Assembly (NCBI GenBank): GCA_000092065.1
Contig: CP000586.1
Source of the DNA: Ostreococcus lucimarinus
Lineage: Eukaryota
Direction: 5' to 3' (one strand)
DNA length: 64,000 bases
Part shown: in pieces, positions 1-42,631 of the stretch
Position numbering within the stretch: the stretch's first letter is position 1
How the letters are laid out: every line of letters starts with the position of its first letter
Made by a program: the position numbers and the translations under genes
The notes under the pieces: model-generated
What the model was told of the DNA's origin: nothing
The model's database searches: none
The model's input: only the letters and a program-made list of their open reading frames with translations

Positions 1-5
1 TGAAG

Positions 6-5399: not shown

Positions 5400-5641
5400 C
5401 CCGCGCCGTCTCGACGTTCAACCCATCGCAACGCATCACAGACACCGACGACCGACGCGTATTAATCCATGCATCCGCCCACGCGTCTCGCGCCCGATCG
5501 CTCGCGCGCGCGGCGCCCCGCGTCCCGGTCTTCGTCTCTCGCGCGTCGCGTCGATTTAAATCAGTTGGGACAGCCGCGCGCGCGGGCCATCGCACTTGAC
5601 CGTCATTCCTCGACGCGCCTCGCGCGCCGTCGCGCGCGCCG

Positions 5642-8512: not shown

Positions 8513-8642
8513 GTGACATGCGCCGCGCGTAACCTTTGCTTAGTTTGTATCGACTTCACGCGCGTCGATTCCCCGCGTCTCGCCCCGTCGCACTCGCCGT
8601 CGAGACGCGCGCCGCACACTCCCGCGCGCGACGACGCGCGAG

Positions 8643-9491: not shown

Positions 9492-9534
9492 ACGGATGTC
9501 ATTTTCAATGTGCTGTTGTTACACGGAACGCATC

Positions 9535-12453: not shown

Positions 12454-12560
12454 CTGCGCGATCATGTTTTAATAGTACTCATTCGCGACTCTGTATCGCG
12501 CGCTCACGCAACCGCGACGCCCTCCTCAGCTCGCACAACTGCCCCCACACTCGCCCGCGC

Positions 12561-13070: not shown

Positions 13071-13137
13071 TTCGCGACGCTCGAGTCGAGTCGCGGGTGC
13101 GGTTCTAGCAGAAATTTGTCATTCATTCATGCAGTTT

Positions 13138-17318: not shown

Positions 17319-17511
17319 GTGCGTTTCCTTATCGCTCGTCACAATTTACTCGAGCTCTATGACGATACAATCCTTTAAGGCGCTGACGACTATGAGGCAT
17401 CCTTAACCTCCTACTCATTCGGAGAGCTCGACCGTTTCACGCGGCGTACCGCGCGATGACTTGCTGATCGCTTCTCGACTAACCTTCGATTTTTCATTCG
17501 TCCGCACACAG

Positions 17512-18430: not shown

Positions 18431-18664
18431 GTGAGTTCAGTCGTGCCTCGCGCGCTACGTGTTTTCGACACTTCTTTCGAAAGGCGATGAAGAAAACCAG
18501 GCTCCCTCTACCGAATTGCCATGTCGGATAACCGTCGGCTGAATCGAACAATAAACAACCCTGGCCAGGACCGAGCTCTTTCGATGTTTTCTTTTTTTTT
18601 CTTCATCCCGTCACGCGGTTCGTTGCGACGTTGACTGAACTCACATTTCTACTTCTATTCGCAG

Positions 18665-19417
18665 GACTCCGCGAGTCGTTTAATGGCGCTCGCGGGACGC
18701 GCCACAGATTTGGCTTTGGACTTCATTAGTCAGCCTGATGCCTTGGGTGCGACGGCGGAGGAGGTCAAAACTCTACAACACGACGATCTCATGGACGACG
18801 CCGAGGATGTTGACGACGACGCATCACTCGATCTCGCGCCCAAGGCTCAAATCATCACGACAGCGTGCTGGCTGACGGTGAAGGAAACGAGCCTACTCAC
18901 GGGTGAAATCATAGCTTCGTCCACGGATGTATTTTCGTTCGATGCGATCAAATCGACGGGCGAGCGCTTGATGAAAGTGTTGTTCGCCGTAAAACACACC
19001 GGTGCTCTCGAGAAAACACGCATCGGTATGACTGCAGTTTGTTCACGCTTGATGCGATCGGACGACGCTGCTATGAAAGCGTTACCGCAGCGTTGGCTTG
19101 AAGACCTTCTTGATCAACTCAATCGCCCTGGTCAAGGCATTCGTGATCGCGTTCGACGTTCGGCGGGCTTACCGTACGCGTTCATGTCCATCCTTCTCGC
19201 CGAACCAAAAGGACAACCGAGACTGGCGCTTGACGGCGCGCTCCCTCGCTTGCTCGATATTGCATCTGGTGTTGTGAGCTCGGACATTCCCCGAGTGCAT
19301 GCCTTCAACGTTATTCGTGTCATTTTCGCCGATCGAGATTTGACGATGGACACCACACCGTACGCCGCGCGAGGTGTGCAGGTGTGCATCGACGCTTTCT
19401 CTTCGCCAACTTGGGAG
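18665..19417 (+). CDS. THADA: THADA homolog, exon 3 (contains the conserved RRSAGLP motif).
   Basis: Acceptor ttcgcAG|G (18663/64) with a CTGAC branch. 'RVRRSAGLPYAFMSILLAEP' matches the hallmark RRSAGLP motif of Trm732/THADA. Donor GAG|GTACGT at 19418. Confidence 0.6.
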
Positions 19418-19660
19418 GTACGTCCTCTATTGTCACGCGCATTCGTTCTCGCTTTCTCGCCGCGCCACGCTGGAGGTATCGTTGCCTGTGCTTTAGCCTT
19501 GCGATTGGGCGCATGGCTTGTTCCCCAGCAACATTCAAGGAGTTCGAACAAAGAGCGCCCGCGTGCTCCAGCGGGCGTTTGGAAACTCGAACTCAACATT
19601 CGCTTATCGATGTTTGCTGATCAAACTTTTCGACTGACTTTTGCCTCGACGATGCTATAG

Positions 19661-26354: not shown

Positions 26355-27608
26355 CTAATCGATTGACACGGCCGAAGCCATCCCCATACCGCTGCCGATG
26401 CACATGCTGACGACACCGGTCTTCGCGCCACGTCGGTGCATCTCGTGAATCAGTGTCGCGAGACATCTCGCGCCTGTAGCGCCGAGCGGATGGCCTAACG
26501 CGATGGCGCCTCCGTTAACGTTGACTTTTTCAGAATCGAGCCCTAACTTTTCGACGCAATACGTCGCCTGCGACGCGAAGGCTTCATTTATCTCGTACAG
26601 GTCGACGTCATCGACAGTCATGTTCGCCGCACTCAGCGTCGCGGGAATCGCGATCGCGGGACCGATGCCCATGAGGGCTGGGTCACAGCCGACGGCGGCC
26701 CACGAGCGCCAAGTCGCCAAAATCGGCAAGCCGCGCGCCTCTGCGTACGATCTTCGCGCCAGAACGACGGCGGCGGCACCATCGGAAACTTGCGATGCGT
26801 TGCCCGGCGTCGTGCTGCCGCCTTTCTTGAACACAGCCGGGAGTTTTGCGAGCGATTGAACCGTTGTGCCCTCTCTGATACCGTCGTCCTCCGACACGAT
26901 GACGTTTGCGCCGCCGCCGGCGCCGGTTTTGGGATCCGGAGCGGTTTTCGTGTGAATGGGCACGATTTCAGCCTTGAATCTGCCGCTCGCGCGCGCGTTT
27001 GCCGCGCGCGCGTGGGATCGCGCCGCCATCGTATCCTGCGCCTCGCGCGTGATCCCCCACTTCTCCGCCACGTTTTCGCTCGTGATGCCCATGGGAATCA
27101 AGCAGTTTTGCGCGTCGCTCGACGACGCGATTCGCGGATTAATCCCGCCTTCCCACTTCATCGGATTTGCCGTCATCGTCTCCACTCCCGCACCGATTCC
27201 CATATCGTAGTACCCAGCCTTGATTCCCGCCGCGATGTCCGCGCACGCCTGCAACCCCGACGAGCACTGTCGATTCGTCGTTCGCACCGGCACCTCCTTC
27301 GGAAACCCCGCGAGAAACATTCCTATCCTGCACTCGTTAGCCCTTTGACTCGACGCTCCCAGCACCGATCCGACGACGATGTCCCCGACATCGTTCACAT
27401 CAATTTTCCCTCGCGCCACGCTCGCTTGCAGCACCGCGGCGATCAAGTCATCCGCCGGCGTCGCCGCCAATCCGCCTCGCTTCGCTCGCGTGATGGGCGT
27501 TCTGCACGCGCTCACGATGACGACGTCATCCGGCGATTTGGCGAATCCCTGTGCGTCGATGCGCGTCGTCAGTCGAGCGTCCCGCGGCCGTCGCGCGCAT
27601 TCATTCAT
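26355..27608 (-). CDS. 3-ketoacyl-CoA thiolase / acetyl-CoA acetyltransferase (peroxisomal KAT-like).
   Basis: 'NRQCSSGLQACADIAAGIKAGYYDMGIGAGVETM' and the C-terminal catalytic 'CIGSGMGMA'. A PTS2-like 'RLTTRIDAQ' is only an imperfect match. The start codon lies inside the (TTCA)n repeat. Confidence 0.85.
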   Translation of the reverse strand: MNECARRPRDARLTTRIDAQGFAKSPDDVVIVSACRTPITRAKRGGLAATPADDLIAAVLQASVARGKIDVNDVGDIVVGSVLGASSQRANECRIGMFLAGFPKEVPVRTTNRQCSSGLQACADIAAGIKAGYYDMGIGAGVETMTANPMKWEGGINPRIASSSDAQNCLIPMGITSENVAEKWGITREAQDTMAARSHARAANARASGRFKAEIVPIHTKTAPDPKTGAGGGANVIVSEDDGIREGTTVQSLAKLPAVFKKGGSTTPGNASQVSDGAAAVVLARRSYAEARGLPILATWRSWAAVGCDPALMGIGPAIAIPATLSAANMTVDDVDLYEINEAFASQATYCVEKLGLDSEKVNVNGGAIALGHPLGATGARCLATLIHEMHRRGAKTGVVSMCIGSGMGMASAVSID

Positions 27609-27630
27609 TCATTCATTCATTCATTCACGC
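27599..27630. repeat. (TTCA)n / (ATGA)n tetranucleotide microsatellite, ~7 units, spanning the thiolase start codon.
   Basis: 'cattcattcattcattcattcattcattcacg' read directly. Confidence 0.85.
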
Positions 27631-27964: not shown

Positions 27965-30900
27965 TCACGCGTCGATGTTTAAGACGCACGCGACGCCGCG
28001 TAAGATCCACGCGCTCGCGTGCTCGCTCGAGGCCAAGTCGGCTTGGAAGACGAGACCGCGACCCATGGCGTCGCGACGACTTTGAGTGAAGTACACGGGC
28101 GCTTTGAAAGCGTTCGTTGTCGATGAGGAGGAGGAAGAAGAGGGCATCGTGGTGCGTTCTATCGGGACGAGACGCAGGATGGGGAGCTCGCGCGCCAAGC
28201 CGCGGTCGCTTGGATGCGCCAGGACGCGGCGTTCGGCGTCCCAAATCGCGCCTTCGAGAAATAAACCCGAGATGTAACAGCCTATCTCGGGTTTGGCGTC
28301 GATTTCATCCGCGGAAACGTACGGGGTGACTTCCGTATACATCGTGCTCGCGTCTAAAGGCCAACCACGAGAGCGACACGCGGTTTGAATGAGTGCCGCG
28401 ATGTACGTTTCCGGGCAGTGTAAACCGCTGAGCCAGATGACTTTTGGTTCGCCGTCGACGGCCCACGACTTGTACTGCTTCTCCCGCGTCTTGTACCACG
28501 TCATCCAAGATTGTACGTCTTTGTCTGTCGGTGGCGCGACACTTTTCCACTCCTCCGGTAAGCGCCCGCGCGAGAGTGAATCCGCGACGGCGTCGAGTTC
28601 TCGCGACATGCCGATTTCCCCACTCAGCGCCTTGACGAGCTCTCGCAACGAGTGTCGAAGCACCAGCTTTAACGCGTTGTGACGCTCAATCTCCTGGAAG
28701 AGTACCACGGTCGTCGGCGATGGAACTTCATCTCCGCGCTGACGCTGGAGTTTTATCAAGTCAAACTCGAAATCTTCGTTCGTGACGACGTTTAAGATTT
28801 CGTTGACGATGGCGAGCAAGGCGCCGTTTCCATCGCTCGAGCCAGCGCTCTCGTCGTTCGACGAAGCCGAAATGGAGAGTTTACTCTGGAGCGATAAGAC
28901 GTTAGACCATAACGCTTTCGCTGCTCGTGTAGAGTGTGCGACGTCTGCGTTGGCGTGAAGCCCGAGTACTTCAGGTGTCTGCGCGTCTGGAAGTTCATCG
29001 ATGACGCGCGATTGCTCGTCGTACGAAGATTCCGGCGGCGGCAACTCATAACGAACTCGAGCTTCTTCGTCGGCGTAAAACATGAACTTGTGAAAGCCAT
29101 CAAATAAGAAATCGCCAAAGTACTCGTCCAGATACGCGCTCAAGATACGTCGATCGTAATGATCGCTCACGCGTCCACCGTACATGGCCTCACCTATGAG
29201 ATATTTCAACGCCGCCCACGGAATCATTCTCGAGCCGCCGCCGCCGGTGTTCACGGCGGCAACTTTGTTACAATAAGTCTTGATCAAACTGAACGAAATT
29301 CGAAAATCGGTTTCGTTGAAATCATACGCAACGTTCCATCCGAGCTTACCGTACTTTCGTCGCTCTTGCACGGCAGCGTGGAAGAAGGCCAGCACGTACG
29401 CTAAAGATCTAAAGAAAGGGTTCGCGCAACTCCCCAAGACGTCTTCGGACAATCTCGCGTACGACGCCTTCATGTTCATCTTGAGCCCGTCGGGGGGTTC
29501 TGTGACAACTTTGAGACTTTTTTGCAGAATACCGATCGGGAACGTTTTGATCGGGTCGGTGGTGAGCCACAAACGGAAGTCTTTGTGCGGGTTCGCCAAT
29601 CCGTCGACGACTTTTTCGAGCGCCGGCAGCCATTTGGGGAGAAGATGACAGTTTTGCAACATGAGCCACAAACCTCGCGAGGCGCACGTAAGAATAAGTT
29701 CCTCGGCTTTAGGTCCCATGCCTTGCCCAAGGGCCATGAACTTCAGTTTGCCTCCTGCCTTGAATCCCATCGTTTCTCCCAACGCAAAAATATCAAACGC
29801 CGGATCTGCGCCAGGGGAGAGAATGAACACCACAGGTGTCTGCGCGGAAGACAATTTAAATATGCTTTCGTAGTCTGAAATCGGAGGCGTTACGTATCTT
29901 GAACCCATGGTTTCAGTGATGTAGTTCGACACCGCCACCGTGACTCGATCTAATCGAGCGCAACGCAACAAGCATAGGCGCTCAAAACTGGACAGCGACG
30001 CCGAGTAACCATCTGGAAGCGCTACGGATTCGGGTTGTTCGCAGTCGTACCATGCGCGCCACGCATCGGCGTTGGACGTGATTCGATCGACGATTCCGTT
30101 TAGTGTTGCGCACTTGTCGTCATTAGCCGCGATGTGCTCGTCTAAATGCATTAAATCTTGCCAACCACGTTCGGACCACCATGGAAGCGGTTGCGAATCC
30201 CCGGAGGCGGCGTCAAGCGTGACGTTGCCCTTGAGGAAGAATCGTAGGAGGTTGCCATTCAATCGTCCATCACCGTCTTCGATTCTCGTAGTCATTTGAA
30301 ACGAAAGCGCGAGTTTATCGCGCTTGAACAAACCGAGACATGCAAATTTGTACACGTCGTACGTCAACCTATCCACAAGATCACTCAAGCGCTCGTCCAG
30401 TTGATCGCGCACGGGCGTGACATGAAGCGTGTTGCAGAACACATCCAAAAAGCTCGAAAGTGAGTACTCGTACATCGCGTTGAGATTAGAGAGCGCTGAA
30501 ATGACGAAGAAGAGTATCGCGCCGCGCTTTGCTACGGGAGAGTAGCACGACTGTGCCTTGTTTAACTCTTTCGCCGAACGCGCCGCCGCCACGAGCTTTT
30601 CAGAAATCTCTGTAGACTTTGTCTTCGCGCTCTCGAGTGTTTCGATGAGCTCCACGTTATCAACGATTTCACCCTGTGCGGTGGACAACTCATAAAGCAA
30701 CGTGTCTTCGAGTTTCTTCAACAGTGCTCGATTCGCGACGGTTTCCTTGACGAGTTTTTCTCGCTCTGTTTCAAGATCTGGGCGCTCTTGCTTCACCGTG
30801 ACATTCAAAAGTTGCTCTTGGAGCCCGAGCTCAGTGACAGAGTAGTTGATTATAATCGTTTTACCCGTCACATCTGGATCGTAATGGGGATTTGGAAGTT

Positions 30901-33900
30901 TCGTCGTCATGTACAGGCGGAAGTTGTCGTCCCACTCAACTTCAGAATCGCCAAGCTTGATCATCTTCGCTCCGTTTGGAGCGTAGTAGAAACTCTTCTT
31001 CAGCACCGGGTCCAAAACGGGATCAATGTACTCGCCCACGTTTTCTATCAAGAATGGTAAACCATATTCAATGGCGAGCTCGAGTTGTTTCAAAAAGTCT
31101 GCGTCGGTCTGACGTTTAATCTTACCTTCGAGCTGCGCGCCCTCGCGAGATTTGATCCACTTTACCGCTTGCATCTGCGGATCGATACACAGCGGGAATC
31201 GCTCGGCGCGCATGGTGAGTATACCGTTTTGTACGCTAAGCTCATCACCTGGCAACCCTTCGGCGAGCCAAGAATTCATTTCGTTGTCATCTGTGAGTAA
31301 CGCTTGGAGTCTGAATGGTTGACTCAACGGTATGCCGAGCTCCAGCAAATTCTTCTCAAGATGATCGTGAACGAATTGTTTACGAAACTCGTACGTAAAC
31401 GTTCCAGCGTACGACAAGAACGCGGAAGTGATCAAACAATCGCCAACAAGTCGCTCTTTACGGGAATTCAGTTCTTGCATCTCATTCGTCCATCTGACCT
31501 TTTCGCTCGACAGTCCCGAGATGAGTCGTTCGGCGGCGGCGAGACGGTTCGCCATTAGCTCGGCACTTTCCTTCAAGTCTTGCTGACGCGCGCTCTTCTC
31601 TTCGAACTGCGTGCTGAGTTGCTTTAGCTCGATCTGTAAGCTCTTTAACTCAGACTTCGTTTCAACCAATTCGCGTTCTTTAATCTTCAACGTCTTCTCC
31701 GCGTTTGCGACGGCGGCGCGCTTTGGATTCACCATGCGAGCAACTTTGTTGTAATTAATCATAGCAAACACCCATTTCAGCAGACCGGCACCAGCAGTCG
31801 AAATCTTCATCACTTCATCGGGCTTGAATTTTGAGTCTTTTGTGTACTCGCGAATGGCTTTCATCTGTTTTTCTTTGATGCCATCCTTGTCAAACTCGAC
31901 GAGAGATCTTAAGAAATTTGTATCTGCCATCATGCCTTTCGCTCCAGACCACGAGACGTTCGGCAGTCCTTTGAGAATCATCACACATTCACATACTCGC
32001 TGAACCGCGATGTTTGGCTTAGAAAACGATCGGATTTCGGTAATCTCGTCCTTTTTCAGATTATTCAACGCCGCGGCGGCTTCTTCGAGAGCAGGGATTG
32101 CCGCCTCTAAGTCTGCCTCAGCTTCCGTCTTTTCCTTCGCGATACGCGCTGAATCATTGATGAGATCTTCTTCTTTACTCGTTGCGTTAGCTGCTTTAGT
32201 TTCGACTTCCGCCGTGCGCTTCGTGATGCGATCTAGTAAAGCATCACACTCCTTCGCTTGCTGCGTGACGACGATTTGCGCGTCGTTGAGCTTCGTCCGC
32301 ATTGCGTCCACTTCGGTGCTCGCCTGTATTAATTTGTCGAGACCACCACGCAAACGTTTGATTGAAGTTTCAATTGACGCGCGCTGCGTCTTAAGCATTG
32401 CTTCATAGGCGGCGATAAAGTCCAAATAATGCTTCGGAGTGACGTAGTTGTGTCTCTTCAGCTGTGATTTGAACTTTTCGTTGAGAGCAATCGCCGAGCA
32501 GTGCGTGTGCACGACGTGCACGTTAATCTTCTCCGCGAACTGTTCTGGCAAATCTACGTTTATGAGTAATGAAGTGCTTACTTCGAGCAATGCTTCTTTC
32601 GGCCATTCTGTGAACCAGTCGATAACAGTGTTGTTCACCAATCCGGGGAAGTTTCTGCAACGGTGACGCAACGTATCGCCGACGGGAGACATGGCGAGGA
32701 CGATGTGCAAGTTCTTTCGGCAACGCGAAATAAAGTATCGCCAACCTTCATCGCGCGTGACAGAAATTTTATTCGCGTGCAAATCGTCACGAATCGCATT
32801 CACCAAAGCGTCCTTCTCTTCATCGGCGAACAACGCGGGAACCGTACCCGTGGTGAGCATGTTGTTGATTAACTCCAAAAATCCTTCCTCAACGACGTGG
32901 TTGTCGGTGAAAAGAAACATCGTGGGATGATTTTGCACCCCAAGTACGTTGTATAGCTTTTTCAAGTCCTCCCTGAACGACTCATCGTTGTAGCCACGCG
33001 TCAGCGTGATCTCAAACACTTCACAACCCGCCATATCAGCGGCGAGATGCGCGAGCGATTGTTTGCCGCTTCCGCCGACGCCGACGAGAAGCGCATGTCC
33101 ATTTTCTGTTCGAAGTACGCGATGAATACGCGTGATATGCTCTAGCGCATGATCAAACAAGACTAGTTTAGTCGGTGCTGAGCCATCGCTGAGTTTGGCG
33201 TTACGACGATTGATGAGGTCCTCGAACCAAGGTTTGATGGTGGCGTAATCGCCAACGTCAGCGTACGAGCGTAGTCGACTAGAAGGATCGACTTCATCTG
33301 ACGATCCACTTCCATCGATTTGTTTTAGTGGACTGTAGTCGGCGAATAAAATCGGGTTGGATGTGATCGGCGAAGTGTCATCAGTACACCCATGGCGAAT
33401 AAGTGACGATACTTTTCCCAGTACGAAGTCGCGATCTTTGTCCGCAATCAACCTATCGTGAAACACGCGAATCGATTCGTTTCGCCACAGGCGCAAGAAA
33501 TCTGGGGTGTTTCGAACTTTTGCTGACGTCGCTTTCGACATGCCCTCGAACAAGCGACTTAAGTCGCGAAGGTTAAAGATGTAATGAAATCGGCTCGGCG
33601 TCGGCAAAAGTTTGGAGACGACGCTCTTATATAAATCCAAAGTCATATCTACGACGAGTTCGTGCGTCCCGGGCTTGAGAGCCAGCGTTTTTGACGTATT
33701 CGTTATGATTGAACCATAAATTACCTTAAGATTGGTCTCATCCGGGGTCTGCATTTCGAATACTTGGAACATTGAAACAAAGCGTGGGTCCACAACGCTT
33801 CGTGCGCCGCCGGGATGCCCCATGGCTGCGATGTACTGAATATCCTTCATCTGCAGCCAATTCAAATCACGTCCGCGGTCGTACGTGCCTCCACGGCCAA

Positions 33901-36900
33901 TCATGAGTTTTAGCAACGCGATTGGTTGTTGCGTACCGTACTTATCGACGGCAGGCATGTTCAAATCGTCCACGAAGCACAATAAACGCTTGCCGACGGG
34001 TGGACCCACCGTGTCCTTCGTGCGCTTGTCCAGCACATCCATGAGCGAGCTATGCACATCATTTGCGGTCGTACGAGAACTGAAATTCATCGTCACCGTG
34101 TTCGTCTTTCCATCTTGCAATCTCTTTTGTAAATAGTTCTTCACGACAACAGTTTTACTTGTTCCGCTATCGCCGGTGAGAAGCGTATGCGCGTCACAAG
34201 AGCACATGAGGTCGATTAACCAGTTTGTGCGAACCGTGTGCGCGGTTGAAACCAAGAGCGACGAAAATGGAGTGTTTGGTGGCACCTCGAGTGGAGTGGT
34301 GAGACTTTTCCATTCGTACCACGTGTTACGAGTGATATCAAAGCCATAATCATACAACGTCGCGCCCGCCGGCAAAACGTTGCCGAAATTGGCGAGTCGC
34401 CTAACGAAGTCATCGAATCTCGCACGATCAGAGTTTCCAGACGTTTCAACGATAGTCGCACCGAATGACCACACTAAGCAGAAGATAAAAGCCGATTCGA
34501 TCGCCCGAACGTAGTCATCATCCTGGCTCGTCTCCACGTCGCTGGTGGAGTCATCGAGAGCTTCCAAAAAGCTTTGCATCAAAATGGTGAACTGTTTTAC
34601 CACAGATATCACCGGTCGATCGATCGACGTTCGCACGATTGAAATCATTCGCCCGTCAAGTTCTGTGCCGTCGTAGCAAAATGCCGTCATTCTATCCATG
34701 TACTTGTCAAACATACGCAATAACGTTTCGCGGTGCTTGGCGCCGACACCTTCGGACCAAGTCTTGAGGAACGGTTTGAAGCCGAGATTCTTGGGGTCTA
34801 CGTACACCATTCCGCAACGACTTACAGTGGCTGGAGAAGCATACTTTAAGTCGGCCACCTCAAACAAAAGCTTGCAATGGTCTTGAAGACGAATCCGCTC
34901 ACCGTTTGGCAACGTCAGTAGGCGATTATCGTCCATTACGCTATTCATATTTTCGACCCAAACTGCGTCGACATCGCCATCAAATACTATATACTTGAAG
35001 TCGTTCTCACGTCCAATAGCCATCGGTTTGTTGCACTCGCGAAAAATATTCGAAAGAAGACCATCAGTCCAATCTCGCGTATCCGGATCCAATTCGCCAT
35101 AGAGTTCGGCCACCGTTTGCGCTTTTGGATTTAGAGTGTACAACTTCGTATTTCGACCCATCGTAGTTTGCGCGCGAGCGATTGTTTCAAGCATGACAGA
35201 CTTACCTCCACCAGTCTCGCCGACTAACATCGTCGTATGCCTCGTCAACATAGTCTCATACAACTGAATAATTTTGTCCACTTGCTCGCCCGGGCGCGTC
35301 AACACTTGATAGCCATGCTTGGCCAAGTCTTGTTCAATGACATCGTTGAGAGTAGGATATCGAACACGCGGGCAGTCTAGTCCAGGGAATAAATCGGCGA
35401 TCAGACCCAAAAAGAGTGGGACATCGTCGAATACAAACTTTGGCAGATTCATATCCCTCAACGCTCGCATGAGAACTACCTCTTCGGCGAGCTCGGGCGC
35501 ATCGCGCTTCAGCGCGCCAGCCATGACGAGCACCGATTTAAGCGCGCGTAAACCGAAATCATAATGCGATCTTTTGCTAAGTTGCTCTTTAGCCAGGCGG
35601 TACAGTATCGTCATCTTCTTCGCGAGAGCTTTCGCCGCGTTGAAACCTTCGCTAAAGAGCATAATTTCACAAATTTGCTCCAAATCCGGCACAATCATAG
35701 TAACGGGGCGGAACAGAGCCTTCAAGTTATCCGGAAGTTCGGTTCTACCCGCATACCCAGGATTCATAGTGATGAAAATACCGGTGCGTGCGTCGCAATT
35801 GATTTCTTTTCCTTCAAACTGGAATCGTGACAAATTGTGCTTCAACGCTTCTTGAATCTGCTTAATTTGCGATGAGACGACGGACAGCACCTCAGCCTCA
35901 ATGCGATTGAACTCATCGAAGCATCCCCACGCGCCGCACTGCACAAGACCACTAAAAATGGCCCCCATAGCTTTGTAGTCTAATCCTTCACCACAATTGA
36001 ACACGACGCAAAGCAAAGCCATGGACTTTGCCAAATCCTTTGTGGTCTCCGTCTTTCCTGTGCCCGCGGGCCCGCTCGGGGCACCGCCGAGTCTATACGT
36101 CAGCGCCGTAGTGAGCGTGATATAGCAGCGGTCAGTTAGACCAGTGATTACGAGACGCCCATTCAAACCCATGTACTCGTAACCATATCTGAATTCACCA
36201 CTGCACTGATTGATGACGATGTCGTCGCGTGCCTTGTCCCACTTGAAACGAAGTTGCGACTCCCACGCAAAATCTGACTCATCTAAAACAGAATCTCTAA
36301 CGAAAGAGTCGATGATGTCTCGCGCGTGGACGTCAATGATGATCAACGTATTCACTTTTTTTCGTTCGCACGAGCTAAGCTCGCCTCGAACCATTTTCGT
36401 GAGAACCTCGAGTTGCGACGAGAGCTTGTCGCTGTAATTCCGCATGGCGAGTTTATCGCCCGAGCGAATCGATTTGAATACGTTTTGCACTTCCCAGGTC
36501 CACCAAATTTGCGACCCCACAAGGGTGATCATTCCAAGCTGTTCTTTTATCCATTCTTCACGATCGCACGTCATGTATCGCGCGACTCCATACTTGCACA
36601 ACGCGCGTAAGGTTGCCCGCATCTCTTCTTCGACGGCAGACATCCAATCCTCAACAGGGCCTTGAATTTTTACGGGCGACTTGAACTTGAACGATTCCCC
36701 CTCTGCGGACGTAATCCCGACTACGCACGCTTTATCAGACGTAAACGTCAGCTTTGCACAGTTGTCAAACAGCTTCAACATGTGCTCCTGAATTAGTGTC
36801 GGATCGGCAGCACCTAAAATTGAAAGCAGCTCCTCGTCGGAGATGAAGAAGAAGCGCGGAAACGCGTCCCGCTTTGTGTCTAAATATTGACTCAAACTCT

Positions 36901-39900
36901 TTTGACATATCTCCAGCTCCTCGCGAAGGTTCTTCAGCGTTTCTAAGCGCCCTTCGGATTTGCACATGTCTAAAACGAATTTAGTCTTCACAGTTTCCGC
37001 CATGAGTTTGCGTATTTCAGTATCGATGTTGTCAAAACGATCAGCTTCCTCAGGAAGCTGCGTGCGTATGTCGTCTGAGCCACCAAAAATGCTGAGTAAG
37101 TACATCCAACGTTGCTGCGTGTCGATCCACACCTGTAGAACATTGGCCACTAATGCGAGCGTTCCTTCCCACTCGCGCACGCTTTCGATGAGCGGATCAG
37201 CATACCGACTTGCCGACATACTCTGCAAAGTTAATCCCGTGTCTTCGAGCGCGAGCGTAATTTCTTCCACGGCGCAAAGCACGTACGTGGGCTGCGCGTG
37301 CTTCTTGCTTTTGCCTTTGGAGTAAGGTCTAAGATCAAAGCGCATTTCTCGCCATGATCGATCGATCGCGATTAAGTCGTTTTCAATTTTTAGCTCCTTC
37401 TCTGCCGCCGCTGTAATGTCCATGATTTTTTGCGCGTGCGCGTGAAGTTTCATCTCACTCAAGTGTCGCATCGAGAGTTGCGCGCTCTTTACGGTTTCGT
37501 CGTCAAAATCAACAGTCTGAAACACAGACTTCCAGTGACGAGGTCGAATTGCATCAACTTTCAAGCTTTCGATGAGGTTCAAATCAGTTTCGATGTCGTC
37601 AATTTCTTCCCGGACAGCCGCAAAGAGGCGATGCGAATGAAGACTCTTCGGAAGCGTCGAGAGCTGCGTTCGACCAAAAGCCACGACAGAGGCGTACACG
37701 TTCGCGACGACCAACTCTGGAACGAGCGTTTCGTAAAATTGTCGCAACTGACCTCGATACGCTCGTTGACATTCGTATATCTTTGCCATGGAATCCAAAT
37801 CAGTTTTTGCTTGCTCAAGCGATTCAAACGAGCATTGATCGACGCCAAAGACGCGCTCACTGTCTCTAATATCGGCCAATGCATCCAATCTACCGAGAAT
37901 TTCTTCTTTAAACGTCTCAAAACTTTCGAAGCCGGCGTCTAAATTTAGCAAAAGATCGGCGCATGTCGGGCCTTCAGCCTTGAGCCTGTTCGCGAAGCCA
38001 TCACATTCCTCCTGAAATAGGCGCGCCGTTCTTTTCAGTTCCGTCTTGAAGTCTGAAATCTTCAACGTCATGCCTTCGTAAACACGTTCGGCGCGCGCGC
38101 GGAGCTTTTCAAAAGATGGAATCGTCGCCGATGCGCGCTCAAGATCAGAGGGATCGTGTTCTATCCTGTATTTCATTCTCACGGCAAATCGATCGTTCAC
38201 TCCACTTGCCGTCACTTCGGTCGCGGTGTTTTCGCGCACATCTCTGACCGTCTTTACCAGATTCTTCATGGTGAGGAAATCACGTGCGTCGACTGAAAAT
38301 GTATTCTCGCATGCCGCCATGTGCTCGTAAAGGTCATTCAGGAGTTTGACGTCAGCATGATACGTCGCGGCACCGATGTCTTTGATCCACTGAGCGCTCT
38401 TGTTCTTAATGAGGGTGGTCAATTTGTCGGCTCGCACCCGCACAGCGCCGATGTCCACGCTCGCGTCCTCATCCATGGCTTTCATGACGTCCTCGTATCT
38501 AAGTAAAGCGCGTTGAAGACTCAATGCGTTCATATTTTCCGTATGTTTTTCGATCACGAGATCTTTGTCGTCTTTCCACACGGCTTGGTATCGCTTCCAC
38601 ACTTCCATCTGGCGGCGGATTTCACCCGCAAAGAGATGTGAGACGTTGCTCAAAGAGCTCATCGCGTCGCACACGCGTTCGTTCGCTGAAACCTCATTCC
38701 CAAAGTTGAACGCATGAGTCACCGTGTTTGATGCGTCATCGTCGAGTTCTATGGCAAGTAAAGTGGAGAGGCTCAAATCTGAGCTCGAAGTTGCTCGCCG
38801 CGTGGGCATCCCCACACAAGTGCCGTCCATCCATCGGCCGAGCACTGAGGCGGCATTTGCAATGGATTTCGCCGCGTATGCAATGGATCGAATGAGCTCT
38901 TTCAACGGCGGTTCGCACACGATTTCTCCCGCTCGCAGAGTTATATTTAGTTTAAACAGAGTGATGTTCGAAGGGAGCGACTTGTCAAAATACTCCCTTA
39001 ATCGAAGAATGTTCCGCTCCGCAGCGAGAACGAGAGCGTCGTAAATCTCGCTCTCCCAATAGGCATAGTATTCCCTCAAATGCACAACCTTCCCGGTGCG
39101 TGTGCCGAAAACGATTTCTTCGACACAAAGCAAAAGATTCATGATGTTGACGTATTCCTCTCGCACTACCGAAGCCGTTTTGCTGCATTGCGCGGCGAGT
39201 TGAGCGAACAGTTCGCCGCTTTCGCGCTCAACGCCGGATTTTGACAGTGCTTCACAATCGACGAATGATGAGACCGAGATCTTTTTCACTGACCGCTCTA
39301 GATCGCCAGCGTGCGTTCGCACGCCATCTATAACAGTTGTAAAGTCCTTAAGTTCCGTTGTGTACGCCGCGACAAAGTCAGGAATACCCAAAGAGTTCCA
39401 ATTATACGTCTTCAGTCCTCGATGAAGAGACGCGCTATTCAGTACCGCCACGCGCGTGCGGAAGAGTTGACGCTCCAGTGGTGACAGTGAATCGAGTACG
39501 TCGCGACGATGAGCGAGCATTTTACTAAGCGTGCATCTATAAGCGCTGTATTTTTCGCTTTGCAATGCCACGCCACGCGCCTCTGCTGGGATGTCGAAGC
39601 CAAGTCGTTCCAGATTTCGAGTCTCCTTGATTAGGCTTGTGAGCGCTGGGTGGAAATTCATAATCACGTCGTCCCCACTCTCATTCTTCGATAATATAGG
39701 TTGCATAAGGCATGATGTCAAAGTAGAGTCTATTTCTTCTTTCCAAGTTAACACGCGCTGCTTCTCGTAGTTCATGATAAGTTTTGCCAAGGCTAAAAAC
39801 TTTGCGTTCACCTCTTGCGCCGCCGGCGTGTCGCGAATACCTCGTTGATCCTCGACGCACGCGTTGAACGATTTCATGGTAACTCGCAGCTTGTAAAACA

Positions 39901-41905
39901 GTGATCTTACCCAATGAATCGATCCACTTACGGTTGGTTGGTCGCGATTGAGCGGTGGTGAGCGGCGGTGACTGTTGAAGATGTGCCGGGTCGAATCGAT
40001 CTCGCGAGAAAATTGCTCAAGGACGTCTTGCATCTTGCCAAGAATTTGACTGTTTAGTGTCATACGCGTCGATCCAGACAGTACTTCGTCGTCGTCCGCG
40101 TGCATTGTACTTTTCAGCTCTTGAACGAGCGCGAACGCTCCCGCACTACTGCGCAACCTCTTGAAGCATGCGTCGATGAAGTTACACAGCGCGCGTTCGA
40201 TGCGCGTCTTTTCCATCACGAAAGACTTGTGCATCGCCTTCCAACTCGCTGCGTTCGCCGAGTCGAAGATGTCTAGCTGCGACATTTCAATTGTAAGGCA
40301 AAGCGCATCCACTCGCGCAGAGATTTCGTCCACGCCGTCGGCATCGAGAGTCACTGCTTTGAGACGCGGACTGAGAAACGTGCGGAAATCACTCACTACG
40401 ATAACCATTTCGCTGAATTCCGCACAAACGTCCGCAACGTAATCCGACTTCATGAACAAGCGTTCGCGATCAAACTCCCACCTTGAATCCCTATTTGAAC
40501 GTTCGATTTCTTCTCGCGCGTTCAAATATTCGCTCTTCCAAGATTCCATAATCGACTTTGAGAGTTGTACGTCGCGCAACGTGGCGTGCGCCCCAAGTCC
40601 GCTCGACGCTTGGGCAAACAGTTCCTGGTAGTTTACCGATTCGCGAACACGATGAATGAGCGCATCTGACAGGCGTTCTAATAGGGAACCCATTCGAGAG
40701 TCGTCACTGTAGTGGTGCGAAATTACCCAAACCATTCGAAGTGCGCGAAGCGTCGGCGCGATGGCGCGGAGCACGTCCGGCAACAGCGCCTCACTCAACA
40801 CTTTGAAATGACTCTCGAGCGTGGACAAAAACTTGATGTTGTCAGCACTCACGCTGTGTAAGTGTGTGATTTCTCCCAAGAGCGTTTTAAACGCCGACGC
40901 GACGTTGCGCACGCGAGACGAAAATTCATCGACAGAAGCAGTGTGCTTCGCCGCAAATCGTTCCAGCACGTCCAACACAATGTCCATGCTCGGATCGGAG
41001 AGCTGCGTCACCAAACCTGACAAGTCGTTATGTCGCGCGCGCCACAGACGAATCTCCACTAGCGGTCCTTCGTTTGCCCCTGCACATTCTTCCGTGATCA
41101 CGCTTTCGCTTTCGTTCCTCGTCTTCGCCGCCGACATCACCGCGCACCACTCAACCGCCGCAGCTTCGAGCTGACGCACGAAAGCCTCGTCTTCACACGC
41201 CTTGGCGGGATCGATGTCGCAGAGTGCACGACCCGACGCCCCGCCCGCCTTGACGACGCTTTTCAGTGACGCCTCTGGACTCTGAACTGGGGCGTTTACG
41301 CCTTGAATCCCATCCAAAAACTCCCGCACATGCTTCGCAAAGGATTGACTCTCCGTCGACGCACTCGACTCGAACGCGGATACGAATGAGCACTGTAAAG
41401 TCGCGTGAAGCTCGTCCATCGACGCCCCGTGCGGAAGGAAGCCGTACATCGCACTCCGCAAATCATCGAGTCCGATCGAATTTTCGTCGTTCACGCAGTC
41501 CGGACGCACGATGAACAACACAGGCTGTTTTGGATCGCACTCGCCGTCCGCGACGAGCTCGAGCCGAGGTCGCCGAGGCGAGTCTTCCCGCGCGCCTCCA
41601 TCACTCTTGACGACGCCGGCGTTCGTCGAGTCCGCGAGCGCGTGCGAAGTGATGGAGGACAACGTGAGTCCATTCATCGTCTTCGCCCTCGCTTTCACCG
41701 TCGAAGTCGCGCGAAGCCGCAGCACGAGCACGTCCTCGCGTCCGCAATCGAGAAAGTCCAAGGTCTTTGCGCGCGAACCGTCACCGAACCCCACGACGTG
41801 TTCGTCGATGTCGGCGTCGACGCACGACGATGCGAGACGAAGTATAAAGGCGACGCGCGCATCTGGTTCCTCGGCGCCATCCTCGCCGTCGTCTGCGCAC
41901 GTCAT
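27965..41905 (-). CDS. Dynein heavy chain, axonemal type (inner-arm I1/f-like size class); single ~14-kb exon, 4,646 aa.
   Basis: AAA1 P-loop '[33 protein letters not shown]...[12 protein letters not shown]' (axonemal signature, not the cytoplasmic 'TESVKAL'). Further P-loops 'GETGGGKS' and 'GVGGSGKQS'. Stalk coiled coils and a canonical C-terminal domain are present. The track M1 (41938) is TTG; the first ATG is at 41905. Confidence 0.9.
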   Translation of the reverse strand: [4646 protein letters not shown]

Positions 41906-42028
41906 TCCGCGTCGAAGAATGCGCGACGACGCACGCAAAGACCTTGGACTTTGCTTTGACTGAGAAAAAAGACGATTCGGCTAAAAATAAAACACGCACT
42001 GCATTCAGCGACGTGCGGCGCGCGGAAG
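41906..42028. promoter_or_regulatory. Putative bidirectional promoter shared by the dynein heavy chain and the RIIa-like gene.
   Basis: ~120 bp between divergent ATGs. Inferred from arrangement only. Confidence 0.3.
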
Positions 42029-42631
42029 ATGATTGAAGAATTGGAAGCGTACGCGAAGGAGAGCAAAGTGGATGATTTATTCCGGGATATGATGACTGGG
42101 TGTTTCAAGAAACGACCGAGCGCGCCGGTGACGTACATCTTGGAGTACCTCGCGAGCGAGTACCCAGAGGAGAGTTTGACGCACGCGCGCGCGTTCGTAG
42201 ACTTGAAGGATGGGATCACGAGCGCGAACGTGGCGGTGGACGAAGACGAAGACGGCGCGCACGATGTTGTCGTTGAAGATATCGATGAAAAACATGAGAT
42301 CGTCGAGGCGCCGCTGACGTCACCCAAGGACGTCCCCGCGAAGGCGACCGACGTCGTCGCGGAGGCGATCGAGGACGTGGCCGTTGAGGGCGAGATATTA
42401 CCGGACGAAGCACAACATCTCATGGCGCCAGAGGAGGGCGCACACGTCGACGTCGTCGTCGATAAGCCCGATGAGCGCGTCGAGGAGTGCGAAAGTGTCG
42501 CCGAAGAGCCCGTCGACGCGGACGCAGGTGAGGAAGAGCAAAAAGAAGAACCACCCGTCGTGACGCCCGCGAGTGAGGAAGCTGTCGAATCGATTACGAA
42601 TGCGGAGAACGTGGAGGATGCACCAAACTAA
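42029..42631 (+). CDS. RIIa/DPY-30-like dimerization-docking domain protein with a long acidic tail.
   Basis: N-terminus 'VDDLFRDMMTGCFKKRPSAPVTYILEYLASEYPE' follows the RIIa pattern (hydrophobic spacing ...F..E.L..QP.D...FA..YF..L). The remainder is Asp/Glu/Val-rich. Confidence 0.45.
   Translation: MIEELEAYAKESKVDDLFRDMMTGCFKKRPSAPVTYILEYLASEYPEESLTHARAFVDLKDGITSANVAVDEDEDGAHDVVVEDIDEKHEIVEAPLTSPKDVPAKATDVVAEAIEDVAVEGEILPDEAQHLMAPEEGAHVDVVVDKPDERVEECESVAEEPVDADAGEEEQKEEPPVVTPASEEAVESITNAENVEDAPN

What the first reader, a model, noticed from the sequence alone, without database searches (positions are those of the whole stretch)
27965..41905. Intact ~14-kb intronless axonemal-type dynein heavy chain in a compact picoalgal genome, with atypical composition
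The 4,646-aa ORF has the axonemal AAA1 signature ([16 protein letters not shown]...[12 protein letters not shown]), four P-loops, a stalk and a C-terminal domain with no frameshift, so it is under purifying selection. Its size fits the I1/f inner-arm class. If the host is a non-flagellate Ostreococcus-like alga, as the telomere type, compaction and codon usage suggest, this is a flagellar motor retained without a flagellum. Comparative dynein surveys have remarked on I1-dynein retention in non-flagellate prasinophytes. The gene is also clearly less GC3-biased than all its neighbours (about 52-54% GC against about 62-70%), which fits low expression or a distinct evolutionary regime.
Basis: partly seen in the sequence, partly recalled or inferred. 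Interest (0 to 1): 0.7.

Follow-up and report, generated by a model that had tools for sequence, protein, structure and literature searches.

The report
Inner-arm dynein kept without a flagellum
This is the intact gene for the alpha heavy chain of the flagellar I1/f inner-arm dynein in the flagellum-less picoalga Ostreococcus lucimarinus, a real but already published oddity whose function is still unknown.

Summary
Window 27965-41905 (minus strand) is one uninterrupted 4,646-codon ORF with a complete dynein heavy-chain architecture. Neighbouring genes match Ostreococcus lucimarinus CCE9901 exactly, and the window ends in a (TTTAGGG)24 telomere.

The protein is the I1/f ALPHA chain. It scores 4,655 bits against Chlamydomonas DHC1 and about 3,920 against human DNAH10, but only about 2,400 against I1-beta and 2,300 or less against other classes.

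It is under strong purifying selection. Against a second Ostreococcus lineage, synonymous sites are saturated (pS 0.74) while pN is 0.18, and AAA1 is 93% identical. The gene is intact in three Ostreococcus lineages.

The retention of I1-alpha, I1-beta and IC138 was reported for this very species by Wickstead & Gull (2007) and again by Kollmar (2016). The finding is therefore already known.

Modest additions from this work:
- The GC3 deficit (0.59 against 0.73 for neighbours) recurs in all three Ostreococcus lineages but not in a syntenic high-GC relative. It fits low expression, because the O. tauri orthologue is H3K27me3-marked.
- The tail has diverged much more than the motor.
- A conserved docking-domain gene, divergently oriented, sits 123 bp upstream.

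The parts
27965..41905 (-). Complete intronless CDS (4,646 aa plus stop) of the I1/f inner-arm dynein alpha heavy chain, the orthologue of Chlamydomonas DHC1 and human DNAH10
   Evidence: ORF. Pfam architecture. PDB ranking. Identical-length alleles in four environmental assemblies.
39374..41179 (-). Tail, DHC_N1 region (aa 243-844). This part carries dimerisation and intermediate-chain binding in canonical dyneins.
   Evidence: Pfam PF08385, E 2e-114. 65% identical to the second Ostreococcus lineage. The tail as a whole scores only 57-64% of what a high-GC relative scores against outgroups.
36593..37819 (-). Linker, DHC_N2 (aa 1363-1771)
   Evidence: Pfam PF08393, E 3e-119.
35198..36187 (-). 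AAA1, the main hydrolytic site (aa 1907-2236). Walker A GPAGTGKT at aa 1945 and Walker B DEFNR at aa 1997.
   Evidence: Pfam AAA_6, E 6e-155. Motifs. 93% aa identity between Ostreococcus lineages with saturated synonymous sites.
34307..35230 (-). AAA2 plus lid (aa 2226-2533). P-loop GETGGGKS at aa 2229.
   Evidence: Pfam AAA_5 and Dynein_AAA_lid. Motif.
33404..34288 (-). AAA3 plus lids (aa 2540-2834). P-loop GDSGTSKT at aa 2578 and Walker B FVDDLNMP at aa 2644.
   Evidence: Pfam AAA_7, AAA_lid_1 and DYN_lid. The G-x-S-G-T-[SA]-K-[ST] P-loop is shared with Chlamydomonas DHC1 (GESGTAKS), human DNAH10 (GESGTSKT) and trypanosomatid IDAf-alpha (GKSGTAKT).
32399..33169 (-). AAA4 (aa 2913-3169). P-loop GVGGSGKQ at aa 2942.
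   Evidence: Pfam AAA_8, E 5e-96. Motif.
31367..32356 (-). Coiled-coil stalk with the microtubule-binding domain (aa 3184-3513)
   Evidence: Pfam MT (PF12777), E 5e-56. 84% identity between lineages.
30605..31273 (-). AAA5 (aa 3545-3767)
   Evidence: Pfam AAA_9, E 1e-82.
28946..29845 (-). AAA6 plus lid (aa 4021-4320)
   Evidence: Pfam Dynein_heavy and AAA_lid_11.
27980..28927 (-). C-terminal domain (aa 4327-4642), with a poly-Ser insert at aa 4589-4595
   Evidence: Pfam Dynein_C, E 4e-79. Poly-Ser.
41906..42028 (.). 123-bp intergenic spacer between the dynein start codon and the divergently oriented 200-aa gene. It is presumed to be a shared promoter region (inferred).
   Evidence: Coordinates. 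The same head-to-head arrangement, with a spacer of about 123-125 bp, occurs in a second Ostreococcus lineage (L004) and in O. tauri (L015). The spacer sequence itself is poorly conserved.
42029..42631 (+). Neighbouring 200-aa gene: an N-terminal RI-alpha/DPY-30-type dimerisation-docking domain of about 45-60 aa followed by an acidic, disordered tail. It is listed because of its conserved head-to-head position. A functional link to the dynein is speculative.
   Evidence: The best PDB match is FAP385, a Chlamydomonas radial-spoke protein (7jtk_u/8glv), E 1.3e-4. The next matches are the PKA RI-alpha D/D domain and DPY30. Remote homologues carry Dpy-30 motifs, several of them with cNMP-binding domains. 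The N-terminal 62 aa are 76-88% identical in other Ostreococcus sequences.

Best explanation
SHOWN. The gene encodes the Ostreococcus lucimarinus orthologue of the I1/f inner-arm dynein alpha heavy chain. It has every module of a working minus-end-directed microtubule motor: tail, linker, six AAA modules with intact AAA1-AAA4 nucleotide sites, a stalk with microtubule-binding domain, and a C-terminal domain. It was inherited vertically, because it sits in the same TSR4-IPT-dynein block as in other Mamiellophyceae. It has been held by strong purifying selection since Ostreococcus lineages diverged, although the genus builds no axoneme.

INFERRED. It most likely still works as one head of a two-headed I1-type dynein, together with I1-beta and IC138, which the literature reports in the same genome. 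That motor would have been re-used for a microtubule-based task outside an axoneme. Its cargo and docking end (the tail) has been remodelled, while the force-generating motor is conserved. It is probably expressed little in vegetative cells and used in a rarely entered state, for example a sexual or meiotic stage. Weak expression relaxes selection for the G/C-ending optimal codons, and this produces the gene's low GC3.
For: Identity: PDB phmmer gives 4,654.6 bits to 8glv_Cn. This is a 4,625-aa Chlamydomonas chain; my own knowledge identifies it as DHC1, the 1-alpha chain, and the 1-beta chain is labelled next to it as 8glv_Co. Scores are 3,877-3,938 to three DNAH10-type chains and 3,338-3,417 to trypanosomatid IDAf-alpha, against 2,400 to I1-beta and 2,300 or less to every other class. 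The same ranking holds for the tail alone, for AAA1-4 alone and for AAA3 alone. The AAA3 P-loop variant is shared with those I1-alpha chains.

Organism: neighbouring proteins are identical to O. lucimarinus CCE9901 entries.

Selection: over 4,563 aligned codons against a second Ostreococcus lineage, pS is 0.741 (saturated) and pN is 0.184. The raw ratio is 0.25 and the corrected ratio about 0.06. AAA1 is 93% identical.

Intactness:
- Five O. lucimarinus-type alleles are all 13,941 nt and intact.
- The gene is called as a 4,643-aa product in six assemblies of the second lineage; the fetched loci cover its first 8,046 nt.
- The O. tauri copy is open over the 3,291 codons fetched.

Synteny with a high-GC relative.

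Context from the literature: there is no cytoplasmic dynein 1 or 2, no outer-arm dynein and no single-headed inner-arm dynein, but I1-beta and IC138 are present in this species (PMC2239267; PMC5100056).

Tail against motor: scored against three outgroups, the Ostreococcus tail reaches 507/413/305 bits (window) and 463/361/267 (second lineage), against 890/686/474 for the high-GC relative. The motor reaches 1,519/1,361/1,190 against 1,815/1,512/1,319.

Low expression:
- The GC3 deficit is present in three Ostreococcus lineages: 0.594, 0.653 and 0.561, against neighbours at about 0.70-0.78.
- It is absent in the syntenic high-GC relative, where the dynein is 0.88-0.94 and the neighbours 0.88-0.92.
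- Codon bias tracks expression in O. tauri (PMC3673656).
- Both O. tauri dynein genes, including ostta06g04460 ('DHC1'), carry repressive H3K27me3 in vegetative cultures, as do the meiosis genes DMC1, PCH2 and SPO22 (bioRxiv 10.64898/2026.08.19.745701).
Against: - No expression, localisation or biochemical data exist for the O. lucimarinus gene.
- The H3K27me3 result is from a preprint on a different species, and a chromatin mark does not show what the protein does.
- A sexual stage of Ostreococcus has never been observed.
- Wickstead & Gull's text lists only IC138 for Ostreococcus and does not mention IC140; in Chlamydomonas IC140 is needed for I1 assembly. Whether a canonical I1 complex can form is therefore open, and I could not search the genome for partners.
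- The disproportionate tail divergence could simply reflect a generally faster clock acting on a less constrained region.
- The comparison lineage L012 could not be named. It is inferred to be Micromonas- or Mantoniella-like only from 68% GC, synteny and similarity.
- Low GC3 is also seen in the second-longest gene of the window, so a gene-length effect is not separated from an expression effect.
Confidence: 0.6

Rival explanations
1. Constitutive substitute for cytoplasmic dynein. As the only dynein in the cell, the I1 complex acts in every vegetative cell cycle as the minus-end motor, for example in spindle organisation within the tiny spindle or in organelle positioning along the few microtubules.
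For: Ostreococcus lacks cytoplasmic dynein 1 and 2 (PMC2239267). The motor domain is highly conserved. O. tauri segregates chromosomes with a microtubule spindle (PMC3603444). In another minute non-flagellate green alga, Medakamo hakoo, an axonemal-type heavy chain is detected in proteomes and is raised in a division mutant (PMC12868012).
Against: The O. tauri orthologues carry repressive H3K27me3 in growing cultures, and genes with this mark are lowly expressed. The weak codon bias argues against substantial expression. Land plants and red algae divide without any dynein (PMC2239267).
Confidence: 0.2
2. Cryptic flagellum. Ostreococcus has an unobserved flagellate stage (gamete or zoospore), and the gene does its ordinary axonemal job there.
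For: The protein is a canonical I1-alpha with a conserved tail architecture alignable to Chlamydomonas DHC1 from about aa 137. In O. tauri it shares the repressive H3K27me3 mark with meiosis genes. Axonemes without outer arms can still beat (noted in PMC5100056). Its conserved head-to-head neighbour has a docking domain most similar to a radial-spoke protein.
Against: Outer-arm dyneins, IFT dynein and all single-headed inner-arm dyneins are absent (PMC2239267; PMC5100056). Central-pair proteins, RSP3, and most other radial-spoke and IFT proteins are absent from the non-flagellate species, including Ostreococcus (PMC7455551). [quoted passage not shown] The tail, which docks the complex on doublets, has diverged disproportionately.
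Confidence: 0.1
3. A relic on its way to loss. The gene is no longer needed and merely has not decayed yet, and its low GC3 reflects relaxed constraint.
For: The organism lacks the structure the protein normally serves. One related assembly (L001) showed the gene broken by 18 frameshifts.
Against: Synonymous sites are saturated between lineages while protein identity is 71% overall and 93% in AAA1. All other assemblies in three lineages are intact. The L001 breaks are assembly errors. L001 is 99.7% identical to six intact assemblies, with 25 gap openings against 12 mismatches. There are no in-frame stops, and the indels occur at a similar rate outside the gene.
Confidence: 0.02
4. The compositional anomaly marks a foreign or recently acquired segment, through horizontal transfer or an outlier-chromosome-like region.
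For: There is a roughly 14-kb block at about 50% GC inside DNA of about 60% GC.
Against: The low-GC block coincides exactly with one vertically inherited gene in a conserved syntenic block. The best match is the green-algal orthologue. The deficit persists in three lineages despite saturated synonymous divergence, so it is an equilibrium state. GC2 is also low for reasons of protein composition. The first 400 and last 250 codons have neighbour-like GC3.
Confidence: 0.02

Closest known systems
Chlamydomonas reinhardtii DHC1 (I1/f dynein 1-alpha heavy chain; PDB 8glv chain Cn)
   Same: Nearly the same length (4,625 against 4,646 aa). The two align from aa 137 to the C-terminus at 4,655 bits. Domain order is the same, as is the unusual AAA3 P-loop G-x-S-G-T-[SA]-K-[ST].
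   Different: The Chlamydomonas protein sits on axonemal doublets with I1-beta, IC140, IC138 and light chains. Here there is no axoneme, and the tail is much less similar (507 bits over 1,120 aa) than in a related high-GC alga (890 bits).
Human DNAH10 (I1-alpha family; DHC5 in Kollmar's scheme; PDB 8j07 chain k8)
   Same: Second-best family match (3,920 bits). It is orthologous by rank in the tail, in AAA1-4 and in AAA3.
   Different: DNAH10 is a component of motile cilia and sperm flagella. No such organelle is known in Ostreococcus.
Ostreococcus tauri Ot06g04800 / ostta06g04460 ('Dynein 1-alpha heavy chain', 'osttaDHC1')
   Same: Orthologue in a sister species. It is 72% identical over 3,293 aa in a single frame, has the same neighbours (docking-domain gene, IPT, TSR4), lies near a chromosome end, and has the same GC3 deficit (0.56).
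   Different: The species differs. Chromatin data exist only for O. tauri (H3K27me3-marked). Treating the two gene identifiers as one gene is my inference: both are the dynein gene on chromosome 6, and the only other dynein gene is on chromosome 14.
The published observation itself: I1 dynein retained in non-flagellate Ostreococcus (Wickstead & Gull 2007; Kollmar 2016)
   Same: Same species and same gene family. The conclusion is also the same: apparently canonical, under selection, function unknown.
   Different: This analysis adds a quantitative selection test, the tail-against-motor asymmetry, the lineage-specific GC3 deficit and the conserved head-to-head docking-domain neighbour.
Cytoplasmic dynein 1 (DYNC1H1)
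   Same: This is the role the Ostreococcus protein might functionally replace: a two-headed minus-end motor working outside an axoneme.
   Different: It is not a member of this family. No chain named as a cytoplasmic dynein appears in the 60 best PDB matches, all of which are axonemal chains.

Membership tests
I1/f inner-arm dynein alpha heavy chain (IAD-1alpha / DHC1 / DNAH10 / Kollmar DHC5) | Complete dynein heavy-chain architecture: DHC_N1 tail, DHC_N2 linker, AAA1-6, stalk with microtubule-binding domain, C-terminal domain | tested here: met
   All Pfam modules are found in order with E-values from 1e-15 to 1e-155.
I1/f inner-arm dynein alpha heavy chain (IAD-1alpha / DHC1 / DNAH10 / Kollmar DHC5) | Closer to I1-alpha references than to any of the other eight heavy-chain families | tested here: met
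   Scores are 4,655, about 3,920 and about 3,340-3,420 bits to Chlamydomonas, human and trypanosomatid I1-alpha chains, against 2,400 or less to I1-beta, outer-arm and single-headed chains. The rank order is the same for the tail, AAA1-4 and AAA3 separately. This is similarity ranking, not a tree. No formal phylogeny was run.
I1/f inner-arm dynein alpha heavy chain (IAD-1alpha / DHC1 / DNAH10 / Kollmar DHC5) | Family-typical AAA3 P-loop G-x-S-G-T-[SA]-K-[ST] with an intact AAA3 Walker B | tested here: met
   GDSGTSKT and FVDDLNMP here, against GESGTAKS (Chlamydomonas), GESGTSKT (human) and GKSGTAKT (trypanosomatid). That this variant is restricted to I1-alpha was not checked systematically.
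I1/f inner-arm dynein alpha heavy chain (IAD-1alpha / DHC1 / DNAH10 / Kollmar DHC5) | Forms a heterodimer with I1-beta and binds IC140, IC138 and light chains | not testable with these tools
The literature reports I1-beta and IC138 in this species and no Tctex1. IC140 is not mentioned for Ostreococcus in the text read (PMC2239267).
I1/f inner-arm dynein alpha heavy chain (IAD-1alpha / DHC1 / DNAH10 / Kollmar DHC5) | Located at the proximal end of the 96-nm axonemal repeat on doublet microtubules | not testable with these tools
   The organism is reported not to build an axoneme (PMC2239267; PMC5100056). Sequence-family membership is met, but the canonical cellular location probably is not.
I1/f inner-arm dynein alpha heavy chain (IAD-1alpha / DHC1 / DNAH10 / Kollmar DHC5) | Vertical descent, shown by conserved synteny with orthologues in related algae | tested here: met
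   The TSR4/PDCD2_C - IPT - dynein order is shared with a second Ostreococcus lineage, with O. tauri and with a high-GC Mamiellophyceae-like contig.
Cytoplasmic dynein 1 / IFT dynein 2 | Best similarity to DYNC1H1 or DYNC2H1 | tested here: not met
   None of the 60 best PDB matches carries a cytoplasmic-dynein name.
Outer-arm dynein heavy chains | Best similarity to outer-arm alpha, beta or gamma chains | tested here: not met
   Outer-arm chains score 1,770-2,220 bits, less than half the I1-alpha score.
RIIa / DPY-30 dimerisation-docking domain proteins (for the neighbouring 200-aa gene) | N-terminal helix-turn-helix docking motif of about 40 aa with a conserved R-P-x-x-P core | tested here: inconclusive
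   PDB matches: FAP385 E 1.3e-4, PKA RI-alpha D/D E 0.15, DPY30 E 1. Pfam Dpy-30 gives E 0.084, below the gathering score. Remote homologues do carry Dpy-30 motifs, some with cNMP-binding domains. The AlphaFold model has low confidence (pLDDT 49) but predicts helices at residues 2-11, 14-23 and 32-44.

The most novel reading that the evidence does not exclude
The I1 dynein of Ostreococcus is a Polycomb-silenced, stage-specific motor that works without an axoneme. For example, it could drive nuclear or chromosome movements in a still unobserved sexual or meiotic stage. Its tail would have been re-tooled for a new anchor, and the conserved head-to-head docking-domain protein (related to FAP385 and PKA RI-alpha) would be a lineage-specific adaptor or co-regulated partner. 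That would be a documented case of an axonemal dynein being converted into a cytoplasmic one.
Probability: 0.2. Interest if true: 0.75.

Novelty: already known. Interest (0 to 1): 0.3.

Why it matters
Ostreococcus is the smallest free-living eukaryote and lacks every dynein except the two-headed inner-arm I1 complex. Why a 14-kb flagellar motor gene survives in a genome under extreme streamlining has been an open question since 2007. The answer would show whether an axonemal dynein can acquire a cytoplasmic or meiotic job, or whether these algae hide a motile stage.

The present analysis does not answer that question, but it narrows it:
- The gene is strongly constrained, so it is not a relic.
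- The motor is conserved while the tail has shifted.
- The codon signature and published chromatin marks point to rare or stage-specific use.

This analysis also shows that at least one later survey statement cannot be strictly correct. PMC7455551 says that non-flagellate green algae completely lack DHC1-7. O. tauri is genetically tractable, so the question is directly testable.

Tried and rejected
1. A pseudogene in a sister lineage. Contig L001 showed the orthologue split into at least 13 ORFs with 18 frame changes. I rejected this reading. Six other assemblies of the same lineage have an intact 4,643-aa gene. L001 is 99.7% identical to them, with 25 gap openings against 12 mismatches. There are no in-frame stops. 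The indels lie mostly in CpG/CCGG contexts and are about as frequent outside the gene, at 8 in 5.5 kb against 17 in 8 kb. The hit was also an ascertainment artefact, because the word-index protein search returned only proteins under about 700 aa, which favours broken gene models.

2. The full-length homologue search timed out. The tail search returned only 4 weak hits and missed the gene's own cluster.

3. Within-species pN/pS. The five alleles differ at too few sites (pS about 0.001) for a meaningful ratio.

4. Naming the comparison lineages. Exact look-ups of their neighbouring proteins returned no organism names. The second Ostreococcus lineage is not O. tauri, because default blastn (megablast) found no DNA match between L004 and L015. 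L012 is only inferred to be Micromonas- or Mantoniella-like.

5. A length-GC3 correlation across the window is not significant (Spearman rho -0.20, p 0.30). Only the two longest genes stand out.

6. The 123-bp spacer shared with the docking-domain gene shows no conserved promoter motif across three lineages.

7. The structure prediction for the 200-aa neighbour was too weak (pLDDT 49) to justify a fold search.

8. The Gui et al. 2021 paper describing FAP385 was not held.
Full report
**Observation.** The minus strand of the window is open from 41938 to 27965. The first ATG at 41905 gives a 4,646-aa protein with no interruption. Pfam recognises the whole dynein heavy-chain plan in order: DHC_N1, DHC_N2, AAA_6, AAA_5 with lid, AAA_7 with lids, AAA_8, the MT stalk, AAA_9, Dynein_heavy, AAA_lid_11 and Dynein_C. 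Walker B motifs are at aa 1997 and 2644.

**Source.** The two flanking genes (a thiolase and a tRNA isopentenyltransferase) were looked up by exact sequence. The thiolase is identical to ABO96863.1/XP_001418570.1 of Ostreococcus lucimarinus CCE9901, on an 818,664-bp record. The window ends in 24 perfect TTTAGGG repeats at 63833-64000. The gene therefore lies 22-36 kb from a chromosome end.

**Class.** A phmmer search of all PDB chains ranks the matches as follows:
- 8glv_Cn of the Chlamydomonas axoneme, a 4,625-aa chain: 4,655 bits, aligned from aa 137 to the end. My own knowledge identifies this chain as DHC1, the 1-alpha chain. The 1-beta chain is labelled beside it as 8glv_Co.
- Three DNAH10-type chains: 3,877-3,938 bits.
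- Trypanosomatid IDAf-alpha: 3,338-3,417 bits.
- I1-beta/DNAH2: about 2,400 bits.
- Every outer-arm and single-headed chain: below 2,300 bits.

No chain named as a cytoplasmic dynein is among the best 60. The same order is found with the tail alone, with AAA1-4 alone and with AAA3 alone. The AAA3 P-loop departs from the GxxxxGK[ST] consensus in the same way in all these I1-alpha chains. One Tetrahymena outer-arm gamma chain carries a misleading 'Dynein-1-alpha ... I1' label in the PDB and scores only 1,792 bits. This does not affect the assignment. I did not build a tree, so the assignment rests on a similarity margin of roughly two to one.

**Is it maintained?** Five O. lucimarinus-type alleles (the window plus four environmental contigs from Tara and JGI samples) are all 13,941 nt and intact. 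They differ too little (pS about 0.001) for a polymorphism test.

A second, unnamed Ostreococcus lineage has the gene in the same gene order (TSR4 - IPT - small ORF - dynein - thiolase). The gene is called as a 4,643-aa product in six independent assemblies; the fetched loci cover its first 8,046 nt. Over 4,563 aligned codons, synonymous sites are saturated (pS 0.741) while pN is 0.184. The raw ratio is 0.25 and the Jukes-Cantor-corrected ratio about 0.06. Protein identity is 93% in AAA1, 84% in the stalk, 65% in DHC_N1 and 34% in the first 242 residues.

O. tauri (GCA_002158475.1) has the orthologue open over the 3,291 codons I fetched, at 72% identity in one frame.

**A false lead.** The first related contig I retrieved (L001) showed the gene shattered by 18 frame changes. 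This proved to be assembly error. L001 is 99.7% identical to the six intact assemblies, with 25 gap openings against 12 mismatches. It has no in-frame stops, and its indels lie in CpG-rich contexts at a similar density outside the gene. The protein search tool returned only short proteins, which selects for broken gene models.

**What is already known.** Wickstead & Gull (2007) analysed O. lucimarinus itself. They reported as 'a most surprising result' apparently canonical IAD-1alpha and IAD-1beta plus an IC138 homologue. The organism has no cytoplasmic dynein 1 or 2, no outer-arm and no single-headed inner-arm dyneins, and no Tctex1. The same three proteins are present in O. tauri. They could 'only speculate' about function (PMC2239267).

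Kollmar (2016) confirmed that Ostreococcus is the only taxon with only the heterodimeric inner-arm dyneins. That paper also reports that Bathycoccaceae lack outer-arm and IFT dyneins (PMC5100056). The O. tauri gene is annotated 'Dynein 1-alpha heavy chain' (Ot06g04800, chromosome 6; PMC4378021).

Some later surveys state that non-flagellate green algae, including Ostreococcus, completely lack DHC1-7 (PMC7455551). The gene in this window shows that this statement is not strictly correct.

**Composition.** The gene has GC 0.514, GC1 0.550, GC2 0.399 and GC3 0.594. The other 29 gene-sized ORFs have mean GC3 0.728 (sd 0.046). Part of the GC deficit is amino-acid composition (low GC2).

The synonymous deficit is real, with GC at four-fold sites 0.616 against 0.69-0.86. 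It is not unique. Four consecutive ORFs at 15346-21826 are pieces of one THADA/Trm732-like gene of about 2,000 aa with GC3 0.615. Within the dynein, the first 400 and last 250 codons have neighbour-like GC3 (about 0.70), and the interior is at 0.54-0.60.

The deficit recurs in the second Ostreococcus lineage (0.65 against 0.72-0.78) and in O. tauri (0.56 against 0.71-0.75). Because synonymous sites are saturated between lineages, it is an equilibrium property and not a recent event. It is absent from a syntenic orthologue on a 68%-GC contig. There the dynein has GC3 0.88-0.94 and its neighbours 0.88-0.92. I infer that this contig comes from a Micromonas- or Mantoniella-like flagellate, but I could not name it.

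In O. tauri, codon bias increases with expression and nearly all optimal codons end in G or C (PMC3673656). A 2026 preprint reports that both O. tauri dynein genes (ostta06g04460 'DHC1' and ostta14g00070) carry the repressive mark H3K27me3 in vegetative cultures. The meiosis genes DMC1, PCH2 and SPO22 carry it too, and marked genes are lowly expressed. Low expression is thus the best-supported reason for the low GC3. A gene-length effect is not excluded.

**Tail against motor.** As a proxy for relative rates, I scored equivalent segments against three outgroups: Chlamydomonas DHC1, human DNAH10 and trypanosomatid IDAf-alpha.

| Segment | Window | Second Ostreococcus lineage | High-GC relative (L012) |
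|---|---|---|---|
| Tail (aa 243-1362) | 507/413/305 | 463/361/267 | 890/686/474 |
| AAA1-4 (aa 1944-3088) | 1,519/1,361/1,190 | not scored | 1,815/1,512/1,319 |

Ostreococcus keeps 84-90% of the relative's motor score but only 52-64% of its tail score. This is consistent with a changed or relaxed docking and cargo end on a conserved engine. A generally faster clock acting on a less constrained region could give a similar pattern, so this is suggestive only.

**The neighbour.** A 200-aa ORF (42029-42631, plus strand) faces away from the dynein start across 123 bp. The same head-to-head pair is present in the second lineage and in O. tauri, but not on the high-GC contig, where IPT abuts the dynein.

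Its first 62 residues are 76-88% identical across Ostreococcus sequences, whereas the acidic tail is not conserved. A full HMMER scan of 1.84 billion representatives found nine close clusters and then only remote docking-domain proteins.

The N-terminus looks like an RI-alpha/DPY-30-type dimerisation-docking domain. The best PDB hit is FAP385, a 70-aa Chlamydomonas radial-spoke neck protein (E 1.3e-4). The next hits are the PKA RI-alpha D/D domain and DPY30 (PMC12399478). Remote homologues carry Dpy-30 motifs, several of them with cNMP-binding domains. Synteny is generally well conserved among these compact genomes, so adjacency alone proves nothing. A functional link to the dynein is a lead, not a result.

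**Mechanism.** What is shown: this is a complete, constrained, vertically inherited I1-alpha motor in an alga with no other dynein class. What is inferred: it acts with I1-beta and IC138 as a two-headed minus-end motor outside an axoneme, is expressed rarely, and has a modified tail.

The rivals are as follows:
- A constitutive mitotic or transport role. This is plausible but fits poorly with the repressive chromatin mark and the weak codon bias.
- A hidden flagellate stage. This is unlikely given the reported wholesale loss of axonemal, IFT and basal-body components.
- A decaying relic. This is refuted.
- Foreign origin. This is refuted.

**Verdict.** Interest is modest because the open question of function is not advanced decisively here.

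Noticed in passing
window 42029-42631 (+), with the spacer at 41906-42028: A 200-aa gene lies head-to-head with the dynein across 123 bp. This arrangement is conserved in three Ostreococcus lineages but absent from the syntenic high-GC relative. The N-terminal 62 aa or so resemble an RI-alpha/DPY-30 dimerisation-docking domain; the best PDB hit is the radial-spoke protein FAP385 (E 1.3e-4). The rest of the protein is acidic and disordered. It is a possible co-regulated partner or adaptor, but this is speculative.
   Followed up: partly
window 15346-21826 (+): Four consecutive ORFs (15346-17406, 17570-18490, 18683-19660, 19718-21826) match successive parts of one THADA/Trm732-like protein (TPR_Trm732, DUF2428, TPR_Trm732_C). 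They are probably one gene of about 2,000 aa with three short introns. It has the second-lowest GC3 in the window (0.615), which explains the second low-GC patch.
   Followed up: partly
window 63833-64000: There are 24 perfect copies of TTTAGGG running to the end of the window. This is a plant-type telomere, so the window is a chromosome end. The last gene before it (61352-63769, +) encodes a Sad1/UNC (SUN-domain) protein. O. tauri has a SUN-domain gene in the same neighbourhood (L015 16635-18893).
   Followed up: partly
window 27965-41905, database record: The exact 4,646-aa translation is present in ENA and Logan environmental assemblies. It was not listed from NCBI among the cluster members read, although both flanking genes are (ABO96863.1, ABO96865.1). 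The deposited O. lucimarinus gene model probably differs from the simple single-ORF reading. Only 40 of 294 cluster members were read, so this is not certain.
   Followed up: no
L001 (ENA ERZ28548097, taylor_4 contig_21035_pilon), 1-13501: This long-contig assembly carries about 2 single-base indels per kb relative to six sister assemblies, mostly in CpG/CCGG contexts. The indels break the dynein into at least 13 called ORFs and mimic a pseudogene. This is a warning for gene-decay surveys that use such assemblies.
   Followed up: yes
window 41180-41905 (aa 1-242) and 28121-28141 (aa 4589-4595): The N-terminal 242 residues evolve fast: 34% identity and dN/dS about 0.5 between Ostreococcus lineages. 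They lie largely outside the region alignable to Chlamydomonas DHC1. A run of seven serines interrupts the C-terminal domain.
   Followed up: no
window 27598-27627: A perfect (CATT)7.5 microsatellite spans the start of the thiolase gene and its upstream region, just downstream of the dynein stop codon.
   Followed up: no
L013/L014 (JGI metagenome contigs): An I1-alpha orthologue from another, unnamed alga (locus GC 0.59; 52-60% identical in the linker and motor, lower in the tail) is split into many small exons at both ends but has one 7.1-kb central exon. Its exons have GC3 about 0.93. This contrasts with the intronless, low-GC3 Ostreococcus gene.
   Followed up: no
literature (PMC7455551; PMC5508029): Two later comparative papers state that Ostreococcus lacks axonemal dynein heavy chains or inner-arm dynein orthologues. 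This conflicts with the gene in this window and with Wickstead & Gull 2007 and Kollmar 2016.
   Followed up: partly
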